64,000 bases of DNA from a virus, in the IMG/VR virus record IMGVR_UViG_3300031420_000498, one strand, 5' to 3'. The translations under genes were made by a program, and so were the position numbers. Position 1 is the stretch's first letter, and each line of letters begins with the position of its first letter. The notes beneath the pieces were generated by a model that did no database searches, was not told the DNA's origin, and was given only the letters and a program-made list of their open reading frames with translations. Shown in pieces: positions 1-64,000 of this stretch.

Positions 1-1
1 A

Positions 2-550
2 CAGCTCCAGTTCGTCTGGGGCTGGTCTCCAGCCGCCGCAGCCCTCGGCGTGCTGCCCCAGGTCGCTGTTCTCCTAGCCAGTGGCAAGTTCGTCGGCCCC
101 CTGGTTCAGAAGCTGGGGCTGATTCGATCCGCTTGGTTCAGCGCTACCGGCGTAGTCATCGGCCTAGGATTCTTCGCCGCATTGGGCCACCTGGGCTACG
201 GCTGGGTAGTCGTCGCGCTCGTGATCGTAGCTGCCTCCATGCGAGTGGTAGGAGTTGTCGCGGGGAACAATGTGCTCAAGGGGCTTCCGGGAGATCGAAG
301 CTCAGTGGGCGCAGCGCTCGTTGACACATCGAGCGAGCTCGCGACGGGCATCGGCATCGCAGCGACGGGAACAGTGCTCGCGCTCCTCGTCAGTGGTAGC
401 ATCGCAGACACCCACCGTACTGCCACACAGCTCCTGGAACTCCAGGGCGGAGTCACGGTGGCCGGATTCGTCATCACCGGGATTGCTGCGGCGCTCGTGC
501 TGATCGGCTTCTTCCTCGCTAGGCGGCCTTCGGCCCCTGAGCTTCAGTAG
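2..550 (+). CDS. MFS transporter (DHA2/14-TMS-like), C-terminal part; 5' end lies outside window
   Basis: Frame open from window start: QLQFVWGWSPAAAALGVLPQ..., several hydrophobic helices, ends with TM helix then RRPSAPELQ*. Confidence 0.75.
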   Translation, partial: QLQFVWGWSPAAAALGVLPQVAVLLASGKFVGPLVQKLGLIRSAWFSATGVVIGLGFFAALGHLGYGWVVVALVIVAASMRVVGVVAGNNVLKGLPGDRSSVGAALVDTSSELATGIGIAATGTVLALLVSGSIADTHRTATQLLELQGGVTVAGFVITGIAAALVLIGFFLARRPSAPELQ

Positions 551-623
551 CCCGTTGCGCTGAATGCCCGAAGGATGTACAGTGGGCCTTCACCACACCA
601 CCGCTACACACCTGGAGCTTCCC

Positions 624-890
624 ATGGCAATCGCAACCGTCGAGCTGACCTTCGCCGAAGAGACCCTGGCCCTCGCGGCAGAAGAGGGCTTCGAGAAGAA
701 GGAGCTCACGGCACTGAAGCGCGTGCTCGCCAAGAAGTCAGATGCTGACATCCTCGAGGCCGTGCGCCGGCTCAGCAACAGCAGTGGGGCTCTTGAGGCT
801 ACTGATTTCATCGGCACTCTCTACTCGATGACGCTCACTCAGCTCCTCAAGCTCGAGCTTACCCTGAAGACCATCGACGGCTGGGACTGA
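624..890 (+). CDS. hypothetical protein (88 aa)
   Basis: GGAG SD before ATG 624, biased codon usage, upstream TTGCGC..TACAGT promoter-like boxes. Confidence 0.7.
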   Translation: MAIATVELTFAEETLALAAEEGFEKKELTALKRVLAKKSDADILEAVRRLSNSSGALEATDFIGTLYSMTLTQLLKLELTLKTIDGWD

Positions 891-993
891 ATCTACTGCC
901 CACGGGAAATTGGTGGTTGCACTTCAGTCTCATGGGTGTACCATCGTGACTACACCACACCACGCACCACCGATCGAAACGGGAAACCAGATC

Positions 994-1254
994 ATGGACA
1001 TCAACATCACCGACGCCGACCGCATGGAGATGCACCGCCTCGGCAAGTCCGCCCTGGACTACGAGGGCGTTATCCACGGCAAGGCAGTCAGCGGTGCTGG
1101 CGAGCTCATGCGGATCGCCAACGAAGCCGAGAAGCGAGAGCTCAAAGGTGAGTTCATGGTGGGTCTGACCATGGGCGCCTACTACACCGAGAACCGCGCC
1201 ATGAAGACGCTCCTCGTTCTCGGCAACAACATCAATCGTCGGGAGACGGAGTAG
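994..1254 (+). CDS. hypothetical protein (86 aa)
   Basis: A/C-rich leader, ATG 994, C-ending codon bias. Confidence 0.7.
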   Translation: MDINITDADRMEMHRLGKSALDYEGVIHGKAVSGAGELMRIANEAEKRELKGEFMVGLTMGAYYTENRAMKTLLVLGNNINRRETE

Positions 1255-1377
1255 GTCGCCTAAGGGAGCAGCTACTCCACTCTTAACCAGGGCCGCCTCG
1301 TCGATCACCTTCGGCGAGGCGGCCCTTCCTCTTACACGGATTAGATCAAGCCTCCAGAAGCAAGGAGCATCCGATCC

Positions 1378-2046
1378 ATGAGTGCAGTCAAGTTCCATCT
1401 TAGCCCGAAGACTCAGCGTCCCGAGCGTTGCCGAGCCCAGCTCCGGCTCTGTGGCTATGACCACTACTCAAGCGAGAGTGAGGCCCTGGAGGCCATGGAG
1501 ACAGCTGCACTCAAGGAGGCGGGCGATGCGCTGCCCGCAGCCCAGAGCAGGCACGCAGCTGGTACAGGAGCTACCAGTGAGCGGCCAACCGTTCCCCTGG
1601 GAGAGCTTCGAGTGGCGGATGAGGTGAAGCGCGAGGGATCCTACCACTACCAGGAGCTCTGGATCCGGGACGAGACCGGAGAGCCCATGGTCTACGCCAA
1701 GGTCAACCTCCTCAAGTGGGGCCGGAGGGAGGACGGTAGCTTTGGCTACATCCCCGGCGTGGTGCTCTGCGATGTGGAGGTCCGCCCCGAAGGTCGTGGT
1801 CGAGGCTACCCCCTGGAGCTCATCCGAAAGCTCAAGGAGACCTACTCCACAGACAGTGTGCAGTTCACGGGCACCTTCTCCGAGGGTGGCTACAGGATGT
1901 TCAAGGGCCTGGAGAGGCAGCAAGAAGAGACAGGGGAGAGCCTGGTTTCCCTGGAGATGGGCATGAAGGCCGTCGAGCCTCCGCCTGGAGAGTCCTACGA
2001 CTTCGTGGACGACTGGGAGAACGAGCGAGGCAAATACCCGCTCTGA
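1378..2046 (+). CDS. N-terminal HCCH module + GNAT acetyltransferase-like domain
   Basis: AAGGAG SD; N-term FHLSPKTQRPERCRAQLRLCGYDHYSSESEA; GNAT motif A-like DVEVRPEGRGRGY. Confidence 0.65.
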   Translation: MSAVKFHLSPKTQRPERCRAQLRLCGYDHYSSESEALEAMETAALKEAGDALPAAQSRHAAGTGATSERPTVPLGELRVADEVKREGSYHYQELWIRDETGEPMVYAKVNLLKWGRREDGSFGYIPGVVLCDVEVRPEGRGRGYPLELIRKLKETYSTDSVQFTGTFSEGGYRMFKGLERQQEETGESLVSLEMGMKAVEPPPGESYDFVDDWENERGKYPL

Positions 2047-2140
2047 TCGGCCCGGTCAGTTGCGGCGAGCTCCCTTTCGGTGTAGCGTCGGCACGAGAGC
2101 AAAGCTCTTCCATTCGATCTCACCACACAGAAGGGCCATC

Positions 2141-62312: not shown

Positions 62313-62867
62313 ATGGTCACTCCCAGAGAAAAGCGCTATCTTGAGCTCATGCGAGGCTTCAGCTCCGAAGAGCTTGAGCGTCTCCCCCTAGAATACAGCC
62401 TCTACACGAACGACCTCCCGAAGACCATCGGGAGCTTCCTGGAGACTGGACCTAGGCTCCACATCCCTGAGCTCGAAGTCCTGGACAGGCTGTCCGGTGA
62501 GCTCCAATCCAGCATCAACCGTCAGCTCTTCCTGACTACTCCCTGGAAGCCACCGATCGTTCTCCTCCCCCGGGACCGGAGCCGCATCAGGGCAGAGCGG
62601 GCCGCCGCGCTGAGGCTGGCAACTGAGGCGAGCGCTGACATCCACCGAAAGCTCCTCCAGGAATACTTTTTCCTCACTAACTTCTTGGAGCTCACTCTCC
62701 TAGTCCAGCGTGAGGTAGCCAGTGCTCTCGGCGCTGAGCTCAACGAGACCCATGTGGCTACCTACAAGCGCGCCACGGCGAAGCTCATCGAGATCTTCCA
62801 GAAGACCGACGATGGCTATGAGCAGACTCAGCGCCACATCATCGAGAAAAGTCCAGCATCGGCCTGA
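62313..62867 (+). CDS. hypothetical protein, paralog of 63282-63740
   Basis: LERLPLEYSLYTNDLP ... LQEYFF..FLEL. Confidence 0.7.
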   Translation: MVTPREKRYLELMRGFSSEELERLPLEYSLYTNDLPKTIGSFLETGPRLHIPELEVLDRLSGELQSSINRQLFLTTPWKPPIVLLPRDRSRIRAERAAALRLATEASADIHRKLLQEYFFLTNFLELTLLVQREVASALGAELNETHVATYKRATAKLIEIFQKTDDGYEQTQRHIIEKSPASA

Positions 62868-62981
62868 AGATAGCCCTTCTCCCGAAGAACCATTGACAGA
62901 CAGCGTCGGTCATGTAGTGTTAGGGCTATGAGGGCCGATCGAGCTGCTCAGAACATCGAGATCGATTAGGAAGTACCAGCC

Positions 62982-63185
62982 ATGGCAGCAACCCGTCAGC
63001 AGAAGATCGAGGCACTGAGCGAGTTCCTCGAGACCCGGGCTCAGGCCCGACCCCGTGGTCACAGCTCCCTGGATGGCATCGGCTGTCCGGACCACGACGG
63101 GGCCTTCCAGGGCCTCGCCGCCGAGCTCCTCGAACTCATCGAAGAGGACGGCTACGGCTACGCCGGGCAGGAGCCCGCAGTCTGA
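62982..63185 (+). CDS. small hypothetical protein
   Basis: AGGA SD; upstream TTGACA..TAGTGT. Confidence 0.6.
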   Translation: MAATRQQKIEALSEFLETRAQARPRGHSSLDGIGCPDHDGAFQGLAAELLELIEEDGYGYAGQEPAV

Positions 63186-63204
63186 TCTTCAGGCTCCACA
63201 GACC

Positions 63205-63245
63205 CAGAGGGACCGAAGCGACTACTCCGCGTTTCGGTCCCTCTG
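63205..63245. terminator. 13-bp inverted repeat
   Basis: CAGAGGGACCGAA / TTCGGTCCCTCTG. Confidence 0.65.
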
Positions 63246-63281
63246 CTGTACTCAGGGGCAGTCGGTTCTGATAGTAGATCC

Positions 63282-63740
63282 ATGAACCCAGCAGCGGAGC
63301 AGAGTTTTCAGAAGCTCATGGGGCAGCTCTCAGAGTCTGACCTCGAAGAACTTCCCCTGGCCTACAGGGTCTACCGGGATGACCTACCGGCCCTCGTCGA
63401 GCTACTCCACGAGCAGAACCTCGCCATGCCTTTGGAGAGGCTCGACATCCTCAAGGTACTCCTCTTCGAGGCCAAGAAAAATCAGAGCGATCGGCTCGAT
63501 GCTGCCTTCGATGGTGACGATGAGAAGCTCGCAGAGCTAGAGCTCTACAATCGGGCCATCGGCGAGATGGCGCTGAAGGAGTACTTCTTCTCCCTGACCT
63601 ACCTGGAGCTCGGTCACTTCCTTCAGCGAATGCACTTTGAGCTCCGGGGCGGAGAAGTCCCCGATGAGATCCTGGAGCTCCAGGGATCTGTGCGAGACTC
63701 CCTGGTGAGCGCCTTCCGGCTCATCGAGGAGCTGCAGTAG
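63282..63740 (+). CDS. hypothetical protein, paralog of 62313-62867
   Basis: LEELPLAYRVYRDDLP ... LKEYFF..YLEL. Confidence 0.7.
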   Translation: MNPAAEQSFQKLMGQLSESDLEELPLAYRVYRDDLPALVELLHEQNLAMPLERLDILKVLLFEAKKNQSDRLDAAFDGDDEKLAELELYNRAIGEMALKEYFFSLTYLELGHFLQRMHFELRGGEVPDEILELQGSVRDSLVSAFRLIEELQ

Positions 63741-63813
63741 GCTTTCACGGTCCTTTCTACGCATCCTCAGAGCGCAGGTTGCGGAAGCTGTTTCCATGGT
63801 GTAAGTTGACCCC

Positions 63814-64000
63814 ATGGCCAATGAGACCAATTCGACCACCGCTCCCGAATCGAGCTCGCAGAAGCTCTGGGAGATCCTGGTGCCCACCGTCCGTAACCCC
63901 AACGAAGATGGGGAGATCAGCCCCTACCGCACGCGCTATCACCGGGTGTGGGATCAGAAGGTCAAGGCCATCGCTGGCGGGCTCACGGTGCTCACGCCGG
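63814..64000 (+). CDS. phage-type hypothetical protein, leaderless, runs off window end
   Basis: GTG-TAAGTT -6 nt- ATG; LWEILVP..HRVWDQKVKAIAGGLTVLTP. Confidence 0.65.
   Translation, partial: MANETNSTTAPESSSQKLWEILVPTVRNPNEDGEISPYRTRYHRVWDQKVKAIAGGLTVLTP

What the first reader, a model, noticed from the sequence alone, without database searches (positions are those of the whole stretch)
1..64000. ACGT appears completely purged from the window
Seen: reading every ACG I found none followed by T. At roughly 62% GC, base composition alone predicts on the order of 200 sites. Other palindromic tetramers (GATC, AGCT, TCGA, CCGG, GGCC, GTAC, CTAG) are common. Genes that otherwise use GAC/TAC/CAC/AAC switch to GAT/TAT/CAT/AAT exactly before Val codons (gat gtc, tat gtg, cat gtc, aat gtg), and even the low-GC inserts obey the rule. 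Inference: very strong selection from an ACGT-cutting nuclease (MaeII/HpyCH4IV/TaiI specificity) or another ACGT-targeting system, encoded by host or element.
Basis: seen in the sequence. Interest (0 to 1): 0.72.

Follow-up and report, generated by a model that had tools for sequence, protein, structure and literature searches.

The report
ACGT-free giant element with solitary nuclease
A family of very large mobile DNA elements, probably living in leaf-associated actinobacteria, has removed every copy of the four-letter word ACGT from its DNA. It also carries a restriction-enzyme-like nuclease with no protective methylase, so the element may protect itself from its own DNA cutter simply by having no cutting sites.

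Summary
**Observation: confirmed.** ACGT occurs 0 times in the 64-kb window. Expected counts are 231 (composition), 129 (dinucleotide) and 96 (Markov-2). No other tetramer falls below 0.39 of expectation.

**How the word is avoided**
- 0 of 69 Asp/Tyr/His/Asn–Val junctions use NAC.
- No ACG codon precedes T, and no CGT codon follows A.
- Non-coding DNA is also free of ACGT.

**Extent:** the window lies in a 149-kb metagenome contig. At least eight related lineages, down to 50% helicase identity and from several samples and assemblers, are also ACGT-free. The pool is 178 kb with 0 sites against 278–638 expected.

**Not a host-family trait:** a cargo gene points to Microbacteriaceae hosts. An Agreia chromosome segment and a Clavibacter plasmid both have normal ACGT counts.

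**New finding:** the elements share a conserved nuclease (window 45496-46245, minus strand) with a winged-helix domain, an HNH-like domain and a predicted homodimer.
- Distant relatives in three other contexts sit beside an N4/N6 DNA methyltransferase, which marks a type II restriction enzyme family.
- The element copies have no methyltransferase in any DNA held.

**Best reading (about 0.5):** this solitary enzyme cuts ACGT and the element is immune because it has no sites.

**Main rival (about 0.37):** ordinary avoidance of a host enzyme.

Specificity is untested. The scan noted multi-site avoidance that included ACGT on one unrelated genome (unchecked).

The parts
1..64000 (.). A stretch with no ACGT at all, in coding and non-coding DNA. 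It is part of a 149,352-bp metagenome contig (window = contig 58393-122392, reversed).
   Evidence: Searches give the counts. Searches identify the contig. 6.3 kb beyond the window's end and 5.4 kb before its start are also ACGT-free.
45496..46245 (-). Solitary restriction-endonuclease-like gene (249 aa, P0050). It has an N-terminal winged-helix DNA-binding domain and a C-terminal HNH-like (beta-beta-alpha-metal) domain with an invariant E..GH.DP...N.V.QP..INR.Y core. It is the candidate ACGT cutter.
   Evidence: Searches give the sequence, 22 homologues and the invariant core. Searches give the fold. predicts a homodimer. Relatives sit next to methyltransferases.
44789..45499 (+). Convergent neighbour that overlaps the nuclease's 3' end by 4 bp. 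It occupies the position the methyltransferase holds in the paired relatives, but it is not a methyltransferase. It is a homologue of a phage T4 Y00F-like protein.
   Evidence: No Pfam hit. It is 41% identical to the Y00F-family neighbour of the nuclease on the 673-kb contig. tblastn with the partner methyltransferases finds nothing here.
43911..44747 (+). DUF3228 gene, a conserved syntenic neighbour of the nuclease in all element lineages examined.
   Evidence: Pfam. Searches show the same neighbour in L016 and L018.
4635..6095 (-). DnaB-like replicative helicase, used as the marker to find and date the element family.
   Evidence: DnaB_C, 2e-49. One search finds relatives at 82, 79, 56, 54 and 50% identity.
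1..550 (+). 3' part of an MFS transporter cargo gene whose closest named relatives are Microbacteriaceae. The element copies have 0 ACGT. The Agreia chromosomal copy has 4.

Best explanation
The window belongs to a family of very large extrachromosomal elements, with contigs of 94 to about 690 kb and 60% GC. Their hosts are probably Microbacteriaceae. The elements carry a vertically inherited, solitary type II restriction endonuclease.

**The enzyme.** It is predicted to be a two-fold symmetric homodimer. Each subunit has a winged-helix DNA-reading domain and an HNH-like cutting domain.

**Proposed mechanism.** The enzyme recognises the palindrome ACGT. The element makes no matching methyltransferase. 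Its only protection is to contain no ACGT at all, so every new ACGT created by mutation is removed by self-cleavage. DNA that does contain ACGT can be cut. That includes the host chromosome, at about 3.6 sites per kb in a candidate host, and rival phages and plasmids.

**Shown here**
- The purge, its codon-level mechanics, and its conservation across the clade.
- The nuclease's conservation.
- The nuclease's kinship to methyltransferase-linked enzymes.
- The absence of a methyltransferase in the DNA held.

**Inferred**
- That the enzyme is active.
- That its site is ACGT.
- That self-cleavage, not a host enzyme, is the selective agent.
For: 1. **The purge is deep and absolute.** ACGT is absent from 178 kb of non-redundant DNA from at least eight lineages, against 278/352/638 expected (Poisson P about 1e-121 on the lowest figure). 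The lineages have diverged to 50-56% helicase identity and come from several samples and assemblers. A constraint this uniform is most simply one that the element itself inherits.
2. **The nuclease travels with the purge.** Close homologues (53-100% identity) occur on the window's element, the 178-kb relative, a 673-kb contig and an NCBI-deposited contig. All are in the same synteny, and every one of these contigs examined has 0 ACGT.
3. **It belongs to a restriction-enzyme family.** Three more distant members sit directly beside a PF01555 DNA methyltransferase. These are P0071 (34% identity), P0070 (42%) and ORFs on two related Thermus plasmids. Two are tail-to-tail and one is head-to-tail. 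The methyltransferases are homologous to each other at 64% and 38% identity.
4. **The catalytic core is intact.** It is invariant between the paired and the solitary copies.
5. **The fold fits.** The C-terminal domain folds as hairpin plus helix (pLDDT 86). Its nearest neighbours are HNH or beta-beta-alpha-metal nucleases, and the top solved match is a type II restriction endonuclease. All of these matches are weak. The N-terminal domain is a winged helix (Z 5-5.8).
6. **A homodimer is predicted.** ipSAE is 0.73 against a best of 3 controls of 0.00. That mark was reached by 20 of 30 proteins solved as pairs of one chain and by 1 of 23 solved as single chains. The runs agree in at least 91% of contacts, and the partner's pLDDT is at least 78. 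The interface is symmetric and runs through the catalytic domain, as expected for an enzyme that reads a palindrome.
7. **No methyltransferase was found.** Pfam, PHROGs and NCBIfam scans of 101 window ORFs find none. The precomputed Pfam lists of the relatives show none. tblastn with the four partner methyltransferases against 180 kb of family DNA finds none.
8. **ACGT is the only missing short site that needs selection to explain.** The other absent 6-bp palindromes are AT-rich, with Markov expectations of 0-3.3.
9. **The Thermus plasmids point to ACGT.** The two small plasmids that carry the related R-M pair have ACGT as their most depleted palindrome (6 and 9 sites, 0.31-0.43 per kb, 0.46 of Markov). 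Three other Thermus replicons have 1.3-1.8 per kb at about 1.0 of Markov. One of these is a co-resident plasmid of the same strain.
10. **There is a precedent.** PacI is a solitary HNH-type enzyme whose host lacks its sites (PMC3488263).
Against: - The specificity of the nuclease is untested. No sequence of a characterised ACGT enzyme was available for comparison.
- The chromosomal contig that carries the paired homologue P0071 has normal ACGT (91 against 105) and depleted GGCC (2 against 21). So family members may read other sites.
- Recognition domains align poorly between the element copies and the paired copies.
- Seven AT-rich 6-bp palindromes and 137 of 256 8-bp palindromes are also absent from the pool. 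A PacI-like AT-rich specificity would therefore be equally safe for the element.
- Only about 76 kb of this 149-kb element, and 10-21 kb of each relative, could be read. A distant methyltransferase cannot be excluded.
- If the element is a stably maintained plasmid, an unprotected 4-bp cutter should kill its host. The host would have to methylate ACGT, or the enzyme would have to be tightly controlled.
- Whole phage groups with complete loss of a 4-bp site under host restriction are known (from my own knowledge, for example GATC in Staphylococcus phage K relatives). So host pressure alone can produce this pattern.
- The two Thermus plasmids share a backbone and are not independent. Their counts are small.
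Confidence: 0.5

Rival explanations
1. Classical restriction avoidance. The hosts of this element family carry an ACGT-specific restriction-modification system. Incoming unmethylated element DNA survives only if it has no ACGT. The solitary nuclease is unrelated to the purge. It may read another site that the element happens to lack, for example an AT-rich 6-8-bp palindrome. It may instead be controlled in some other way.
For: - Site elimination is the simplest and best-documented anti-restriction strategy of phages and plasmids (PMC6286503; PMC10359461, listed).
- The codon-level pattern is what that strategy predicts.
- The lack of excess ATGT/ACAT fits selection by cleavage.
- Many AT-rich palindromes are absent by composition, so they could serve as a safe site for the nuclease.
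- The paired homologue P0071 sits in a genome with no ACGT depletion.
Against: - It needs every host met by at least eight lineages, over divergence to 50% protein identity, to have kept a highly efficient ACGT enzyme. R-M systems are patchily distributed among strains (established knowledge).
- A Microbacteriaceae chromosome segment shows no ACGT avoidance (78 against 91). Another Microbacteriaceae plasmid shows none either (234 against 219). Both are single samples, and the true host is not identified.
- It leaves the conserved, methylase-less restriction-enzyme homologue as a coincidence.
Confidence: 0.37
2. ACGT is reserved as a functional signal, or is the target of a system that is not a restriction enzyme. 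Possible signals include a packaging, nicking, telomere-resolution or origin site that is used once per genome. Stray copies would then be harmful. The single functional copy would lie in a part of the element that was not read.
For: Only about half of this contig, and small parts of the relatives, were readable, so a unique site elsewhere cannot be excluded. Absolute zero is what a lethal-if-duplicated signal would give, as opposed to strong depletion.
Against: - Four bases are too short for any known unique cis-acting site.
- No ACGT was seen in 178 kb from many lineages and different regions.
- No candidate machinery was found apart from the nuclease already discussed.
Confidence: 0.05
3. 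Artefact or plain composition. The absence would come from sequencing, library or assembly bias, or from a mutational or compositional trait shared with the host lineage.
For: Nothing positive. It is considered because all the data are metagenome assemblies.
Against: - The same result comes from JGI, ENA (MEGAHIT), Logan and NCBI assemblies of different samples.
- An artefact would break contigs at sites. It would not rewrite codons, yet synonymous choice is bent exactly at the three reading-frame positions that would create ACGT.
- The trinucleotides ACG and CGT are plentiful (2008 and 1963 in the pool).
- Candidate host-family DNA is not depleted.
- The host-derived MFS gene has 4 ACGT in Agreia and 0 in three element copies.
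Confidence: 0.02

Closest known systems
PacI, a solitary HNH (beta-beta-alpha-metal) type II restriction endonuclease of Pseudomonas alcaligenes with no methyltransferase
   Same: It is a solitary enzyme of the HNH kind and a homodimer on a palindrome. Its carrier genome is protected only by lacking the site (PMC3488263; structural details from my own knowledge).
   Different: PacI reads an 8-bp all-AT site in a GC-rich chromosome, where absence is nearly free. Here the proposed site is 4 bp with 278-638 copies expected, so its absence must be actively maintained. The carrier is a mobile element, not a cell. The host DNA would be a target. No sequence similarity to PacI was detected.
Restriction-site avoidance by phages and plasmids
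   Same: A short palindrome is eliminated through synonymous codon choice and in non-coding DNA (PMC6286503).
   Different: The elimination is absolute over at least 178 kb and across deep divergence. The element itself carries the only candidate enzyme found. No host system is known.
MaeII / HpyCH4IV (A^CGT) restriction-modification systems
   Same: The same 4-bp word would be targeted.
   Different: M.MaeII is a 5-methylcytosine methylase (PMC10113651). The relatives of the nuclease found here pair with PF01555 N4-cytosine/N6-adenine methylases. This is a different lineage. A TaiI/TscI/Tsp49I-type enzyme (ACGT^, from Thermus; my own recollection, not checked) would fit an HNH enzyme better. 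No sequences were available to test this.
Virus-encoded restriction systems used to degrade host DNA (chlorella viruses; T4 nucleases acting on unmodified cytosine DNA)
   Same: A mobile element uses a DNA endonuclease against host or rival DNA while sparing itself (from my own knowledge).
   Different: Those viruses protect themselves by methylation or base modification. Here protection would be by sequence alone.

Membership tests
Restriction-site avoidance in mobile DNA | The site count is far below composition and Markov expectations | tested here: met
   0 against 96-231 in the window. 0 against 278-638 in the 178-kb pool.
Restriction-site avoidance in mobile DNA | Avoidance is achieved by synonymous choice and extends to non-coding DNA | tested here: met
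   NAC|GTN 0 of 69, ACG|T 0 of 197, A|CGT 0 of 92. Synonymous resampling expects 75 +/- 6. Non-coding DNA has 0 against 16-45.
Restriction-site avoidance in mobile DNA | The host chromosome is not equally depleted | tested here: inconclusive
   Agreia sp. Leaf244 chromosome, 21 kb: 78 against 91. Clavibacter pCM2: 234 against 219. The host family is inferred only from a cargo gene, and the true host is unknown.
Restriction-site avoidance in mobile DNA | A host restriction enzyme of that specificity exists | not testable with these tools
   The host is unidentified. No REBASE or methylome data were available, and metagenome records cannot be searched.
Type II restriction endonuclease, HNH / beta-beta-alpha-metal class | A catalytic hairpin-helix core with invariant His and Asn residues | tested here: inconclusive
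   - The motif is invariant in 20 homologues.
- The predicted topology is strand(His)-strand(Asn)-helix(Asn), pLDDT 86.
- The Thermus relative keeps the CxxC...CxxC zinc layout.
- Structural matches are weak: 4l0k_A (type II restriction endonuclease) Z 2.6, rmsd 3.9, 49 aligned. Cas9 matches (I infer its HNH region) have E about 1. Atlas HNH and Endonuclease_NS clusters have TM 0.33-0.45. Feature scores are 0.83-0.86.
- There is no Pfam or NCBIfam hit.
Type II restriction endonuclease, HNH / beta-beta-alpha-metal class | The gene is linked to a cognate DNA methyltransferase | tested here: met
   This is met for the family but not for the element copies. P0071, P0070 and two Thermus plasmid ORFs each abut a PF01555 methyltransferase, and these methyltransferases are mutually homologous. 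The element copies are solitary.
Type II restriction endonuclease, HNH / beta-beta-alpha-metal class | A homodimer acting on a palindrome | tested here: met
   This is a prediction only. ipSAE is 0.73 against a best control of 0.00. The mark was reached by 20 of 30 solved homo-pairs and by 1 of 23 proteins solved as single chains. At least 91% of contacts are shared between runs, and pLDDT is at least 78.
Type II restriction endonuclease, HNH / beta-beta-alpha-metal class | Sequence-specific double-strand cleavage | not testable with these tools
   This needs an enzyme assay.
Solitary restriction endonuclease protected by absence of sites (PacI paradigm) | No cognate methyltransferase anywhere in the carrier genome | tested here: inconclusive
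   None was found in the 64-kb window, the flanks, or about 115 kb of relatives. Only about half of this contig could be read.
Solitary restriction endonuclease protected by absence of sites (PacI paradigm) | The carrier genome lacks the enzyme's recognition site | tested here: inconclusive
   ACGT is absent, but the enzyme's site is unknown. Several AT-rich palindromes are absent too.
MaeII / HpyCH4IV-type ACGT systems | The partner methyltransferase is a C5-cytosine methylase | tested here: not met
   M.MaeII makes 5mC (PMC10113651). The partners of this nuclease family are PF01555 N4/N6 methylases.

The most novel reading that the evidence does not exclude
A clade of giant mobile elements (about 150-690 kb) of leaf-associated actinobacteria uses a methylase-free 4-bp restriction enzyme as a weapon against host or rival DNA. 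It is immune only because it has purged all of the several hundred expected ACGT sites from its own genome. This would be self/non-self discrimination written into the sequence itself, rather than into a DNA modification. The cutter would come from an uncatalogued winged-helix plus cysteine-less HNH enzyme family.
Probability: 0.45. Interest if true: 0.82.

Novelty: new variant of a known kind. Interest (0 to 1): 0.7.

Why it matters
**If the solitary nuclease cuts ACGT**
- It would be the first case I know of in which a mobile element keeps a frequent-cutting restriction enzyme without any methylase and pays for it by rewriting its whole genome.
- That would turn the PacI curiosity into an evolutionary strategy.
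- It would explain how a purge can stay absolute across deep divergence.
- It would give a simple rule for finding more cases: a solitary restriction-enzyme homologue together with a missing word.

**Other value**
- It would define a restriction-enzyme family that is absent from Pfam and NCBIfam, and possibly a new source of an ACGT cutter.
- Even under the rival reading, the data describe an unusually clean example of site avoidance in an undescribed family of very large actinobacterial elements.

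Tried and rejected
**Identifying the element**
- No whole genome is held for the window.
- The window has no near match in PLSDB plasmids or INPHARED phages.
- The helicase and the nuclease have no relatives in IMG/VR viral contigs.
- The GTDB species genomes gave only an unrelated 30%-identity DnaB.
- The metagenome scan added three loci.
- The window has no tRNA genes.

**Reaching more sequence**
- Whole-record searches of metagenome contigs are not possible. This ruled out counting ACGT, or looking for methylases and capsid genes, over the complete 149-kb to 673-kb contigs.

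**Sample and host information**
- Sample and accession numbers are not in the paper library.
- No paper was found on ACGT-free genomes, and none with sequences of TaiI, TscI or Tsp49I.

**Naming the nuclease**
- It has no sequence match in the PDB.
- It has no Pfam or NCBIfam family.
- It has no name in any of 24 clusters looked up.
- It has no homologue in the phage collection. Two other family members have none in the plasmid collection.
- Whole-model fold searches were dominated by the winged-helix domain.

**Side lead dropped**
- The 619-aa protein resembling Lactococcus phage KSY1 gp028 turned out to have no bearing on ACGT.

**Rejected: decay of methylated cytosine as the cause of the purge**
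- The products ATGT and ACAT are at 1.07 and 1.17 of expectation, no higher than other one-off variants.

**Rejected: the neighbouring convergent gene as a hidden methyltransferase**
- It has no similarity to methyltransferases. It is a T4 Y00F-like protein, and it is replaced by an 81-aa gene in another lineage.

Full report
**1.

ACGT does not occur in the 64,000-base window on either strand. Dinucleotide-preserving shuffles give 130 +/- 12. Expected counts are 231 from base composition, 129 from a first-order model and 96 from a second-order Markov model. The second-order figure is itself deflated by the missing word.

No other tetramer is below 0.39 of expectation.

I called about 100 genes by length and third-position GC and tested the codon claim.
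- Asp, Tyr, His and Asn codons ending in C are used 0 times before Val codons, and those ending in T 69 times. Elsewhere the C-ending codons are preferred.
- ACG (Thr) is never followed by T (0 of 197).
- CGT (Arg) never follows A (0 of 92).
- Keeping the proteins and resampling synonymous codons from the element's own usage gives 75 +/- 6 sites in the coding DNA.
- The 12 kb of intergenic DNA has none either, against 16-45 expected.

**2. Where the window comes from, and how far the purge extends.**

No genome is held for the window, and it matches no deposited plasmid or phage. An exact-protein look-up places it in a 149,352-bp JGI metagenome contig. Near-identical copies occur in two ENA assemblies.

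The genes are mostly small, co-directional and unknown. Recognisable ones include:
- a DnaB-like helicase, ParA, two FtsK-like ATPases, RNase H and an HD phosphohydrolase;
- an R2K ATP-grasp protein and a GmrSD N-terminal domain protein;
- an actin-like segregation protein in relatives.

Whether the element is a giant plasmid or a phage is not settled. Its absence from IMG/VR is weak evidence against a recognisable virus.

The helicase has relatives at 82, 79, 56, 54 and 50% identity, on contigs up to 298 kb from other samples. Every related locus I could fetch has 0 ACGT. These were 11-21 kb each, with Markov expectations of 18-35. Pooling the non-redundant DNA gives 178,286 bases with 0 ACGT, against 278 (Markov-2), 352 (Markov-1) or 638 (composition). 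ACG and CGT occur about 2000 times each.

At 50-56% protein identity, synonymous sites are saturated. The word must therefore be removed continuously in each lineage.

**3. Not an artefact and, as far as can be tested, not a host-lineage trait.**

Four assembly pipelines and many samples agree. An artefact would not bend codon choice.

For the host, the element's MFS transporter cargo gene is 69-72% identical to transporters of Agreia, Curtobacterium, Subtercola, Frigoribacterium and Cryobacterium, all Microbacteriaceae.
- A 21-kb chromosomal segment of Agreia sp. Leaf244 has 78 ACGT (91 expected).
- The conjugative Clavibacter plasmid pCM2 has 234 in 50 kb (219 expected).
- The shared MFS gene has 4 ACGT in Agreia and 0 in three element copies. 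Three of the four NAY-Val junctions use NAC in Agreia, and none do in the elements.

So the purge belongs to the element family. The caveat is that the host is inferred at family level only.

**4. A candidate agent inside the element.**

An earlier first-stage note pointed to an HNH-like gene at 45496-46266 on the minus strand. I tested it.
- **Product and relatives.** The product is 249 aa (P0050) and has 22 homologues. Homologues of 53-100% identity lie on the window's element, on the 178-kb relative, on a 673-kb contig and on an NCBI-deposited contig. The neighbours are the same in each (DUF3228 and a T4 Y00F-like gene), and all these contigs are ACGT-free.
- **Methyltransferase-paired relatives.** P0071 (34% identity) lies in an ordinary chromosomal setting (MurJ, PGI, prephenate dehydratase). 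It is tail-to-tail with a PF01555 N4/N6 DNA methyltransferase and overlaps it by 8 bp. P0070 (42%) has the same arrangement with a 64%-identical methyltransferase.
- **Thermus plasmids.** The catalytic block of P0071 also matches hypothetical ORFs on two Thermus plasmids. Each of these directly abuts a 'site-specific DNA-methyltransferase' that is 38% identical over its full length to P0071's partner.
- **Family size.** This is therefore a type II restriction-enzyme family. It has about 193 clusters at 50% identity, none named and none in Pfam or NCBIfam.
- **Catalytic core.** The block E..GH.DP...N.V.QP..INR.Y...F is invariant between paired and solitary copies. The Thermus form keeps the classical CxxC...CxxC zinc layout of HNH enzymes, which the others have lost.
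- **Fold.** The model (pLDDT 84) has an N-terminal winged helix (Z 5-5.8 to OmpR/PhoB-type domains). Its C-terminal domain has the strand-strand-helix topology of beta-beta-alpha-metal nucleases (pLDDT 86).
- **Structural neighbours are weak.** The best solved match is a type II restriction endonuclease at Z 2.6. Foldseek's best hits are Cas9 (I infer its HNH region). Atlas neighbours are HNH and Endonuclease_NS clusters.
- **Dimer.** A symmetric homodimer through the catalytic domain is predicted. ipSAE is 0.73 against a best of three controls of 0.00. The mark was reached by 20 of 30 proteins solved as homo-pairs and by 1 of 23 solved as single chains. At least 91% of contacts are shared between runs, and pLDDT is at least 78.
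- **No methyltransferase.** None was found in the window or in any family DNA held.

**5. Does it read ACGT?**

This step is inferred, not shown.

In favour:
- Among short palindromes, ACGT is the only one whose absence needs selection.
- The nuclease and the purge are co-inherited.
- On the two small Thermus plasmids with the related pair, ACGT is the most depleted palindrome (6 and 9 sites, 0.46 of Markov, 0.10-0.15 of composition).
- Three other Thermus replicons are at about 1.0 of Markov. One of them is a co-resident plasmid of the same strain.
- From my own recollection, the ACGT^ enzymes TaiI, TscI and Tsp49I come from Thermus, and cutting at the 3' edge of the site is typical of HNH-type enzymes. 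I could not check this.

Against:
- P0071's genome shows no ACGT depletion and a tenfold GGCC depletion.
- P0070's short contig lacks CATG and GGCC, and has ACGT at 2 against 7.
- Recognition domains are diverged.
- Seven AT-rich 6-bp palindromes and half of all 8-bp palindromes are also absent. A PacI-like specificity would be equally safe for the element.
- An unprotected 4-bp cutter would be lethal to a host that must stay alive.

**6. Comparison with what is known.**

Site avoidance by phages and plasmids is well documented (PMC6286503). A solitary enzyme protected by absence of its site has one textbook case, PacI (PMC3488263).

This case differs in three ways. The carrier is a mobile element. 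The proposed site is a frequent 4-mer that must be purged by hundreds of substitutions. The state is conserved across a deep clade.

It is not a member of the MaeII type. M.MaeII is a 5mC methylase (PMC10113651), whereas this family pairs with N4/N6 methylases.

**7. Verdict.**

Selection against ACGT that is specific to the element family is shown, but the agent is not.

I give about 0.5 to self-immunity from the element's own solitary ACGT enzyme. I give about 0.37 to ordinary avoidance of a host enzyme, and the rest to minor alternatives.

Novelty: a new variant of a known kind.

Interest: 0.7. The purge is unusually absolute, the nuclease family is uncatalogued, and one simple enzyme assay would decide the matter.

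Noticed in passing
pooled family DNA (window plus L001-L019): Runs of six C or six G are completely absent (0 against 13 by Markov and 260 by composition), and five-base runs are at 0.52. This may be homopolymer avoidance or an assembly effect. ACGCGT and CGTACG, which join the two halves of ACGT in other orders, occur once each against 7-8 (Markov) and 58 (composition). CTAG is at 0.45 and GTAC at 0.57 of expectation.
   Followed up: no
window 9826-12829 (+): An AAA ATPase (352 aa) followed by a 619-aa protein is conserved in all relatives. The 619-aa protein is 38% identical to gp028 of Lactococcus phage KSY1, which also follows a gene of about 347 aa (gp027). Function unknown.
   Followed up: partly
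window 24723-25349 (+): A 208-aa protein consists only of the N-terminal (DUF262) domain of GmrSD-type modification-dependent restriction enzymes.
   Followed up: no
window 1-550 (+) and L003:15546-16898: The MFS transporter cargo gene is about 70% identical to Microbacteriaceae genes, but its GC has drifted to 60-63% from 71% in Agreia, and all ACGT has been removed. It is a natural example of a captured gene being rewritten.
   Followed up: yes
L016 (ENA ERZ27247443 k141_645502): Contigs with the same gene content reach 298 kb, 673 kb and 690 kb. Some members of this family may therefore be among the largest extrachromosomal elements of actinobacteria. The family is absent from PLSDB, INPHARED, IMG/VR and the GTDB species genomes.
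   Followed up: partly
L023 (Logan ERR13731163_8041, 7.2 kb, 36% GC): The contig carrying the P0070 restriction-modification pair has no CATG at all (0 against 22 expected) and no GGCC (0 against 6). This is another possible site purge.
   Followed up: no
L020-L022 and L011: GGCC is depleted ten-fold or more in two unrelated low-GC genomes (2 against 21, and 1 against 35).
   Followed up: no
window 35098-36114 (+): An R2K-clade ATP-grasp protein (PF14243, 5e-15), a family often linked to phage and conflict systems.
   Followed up: no
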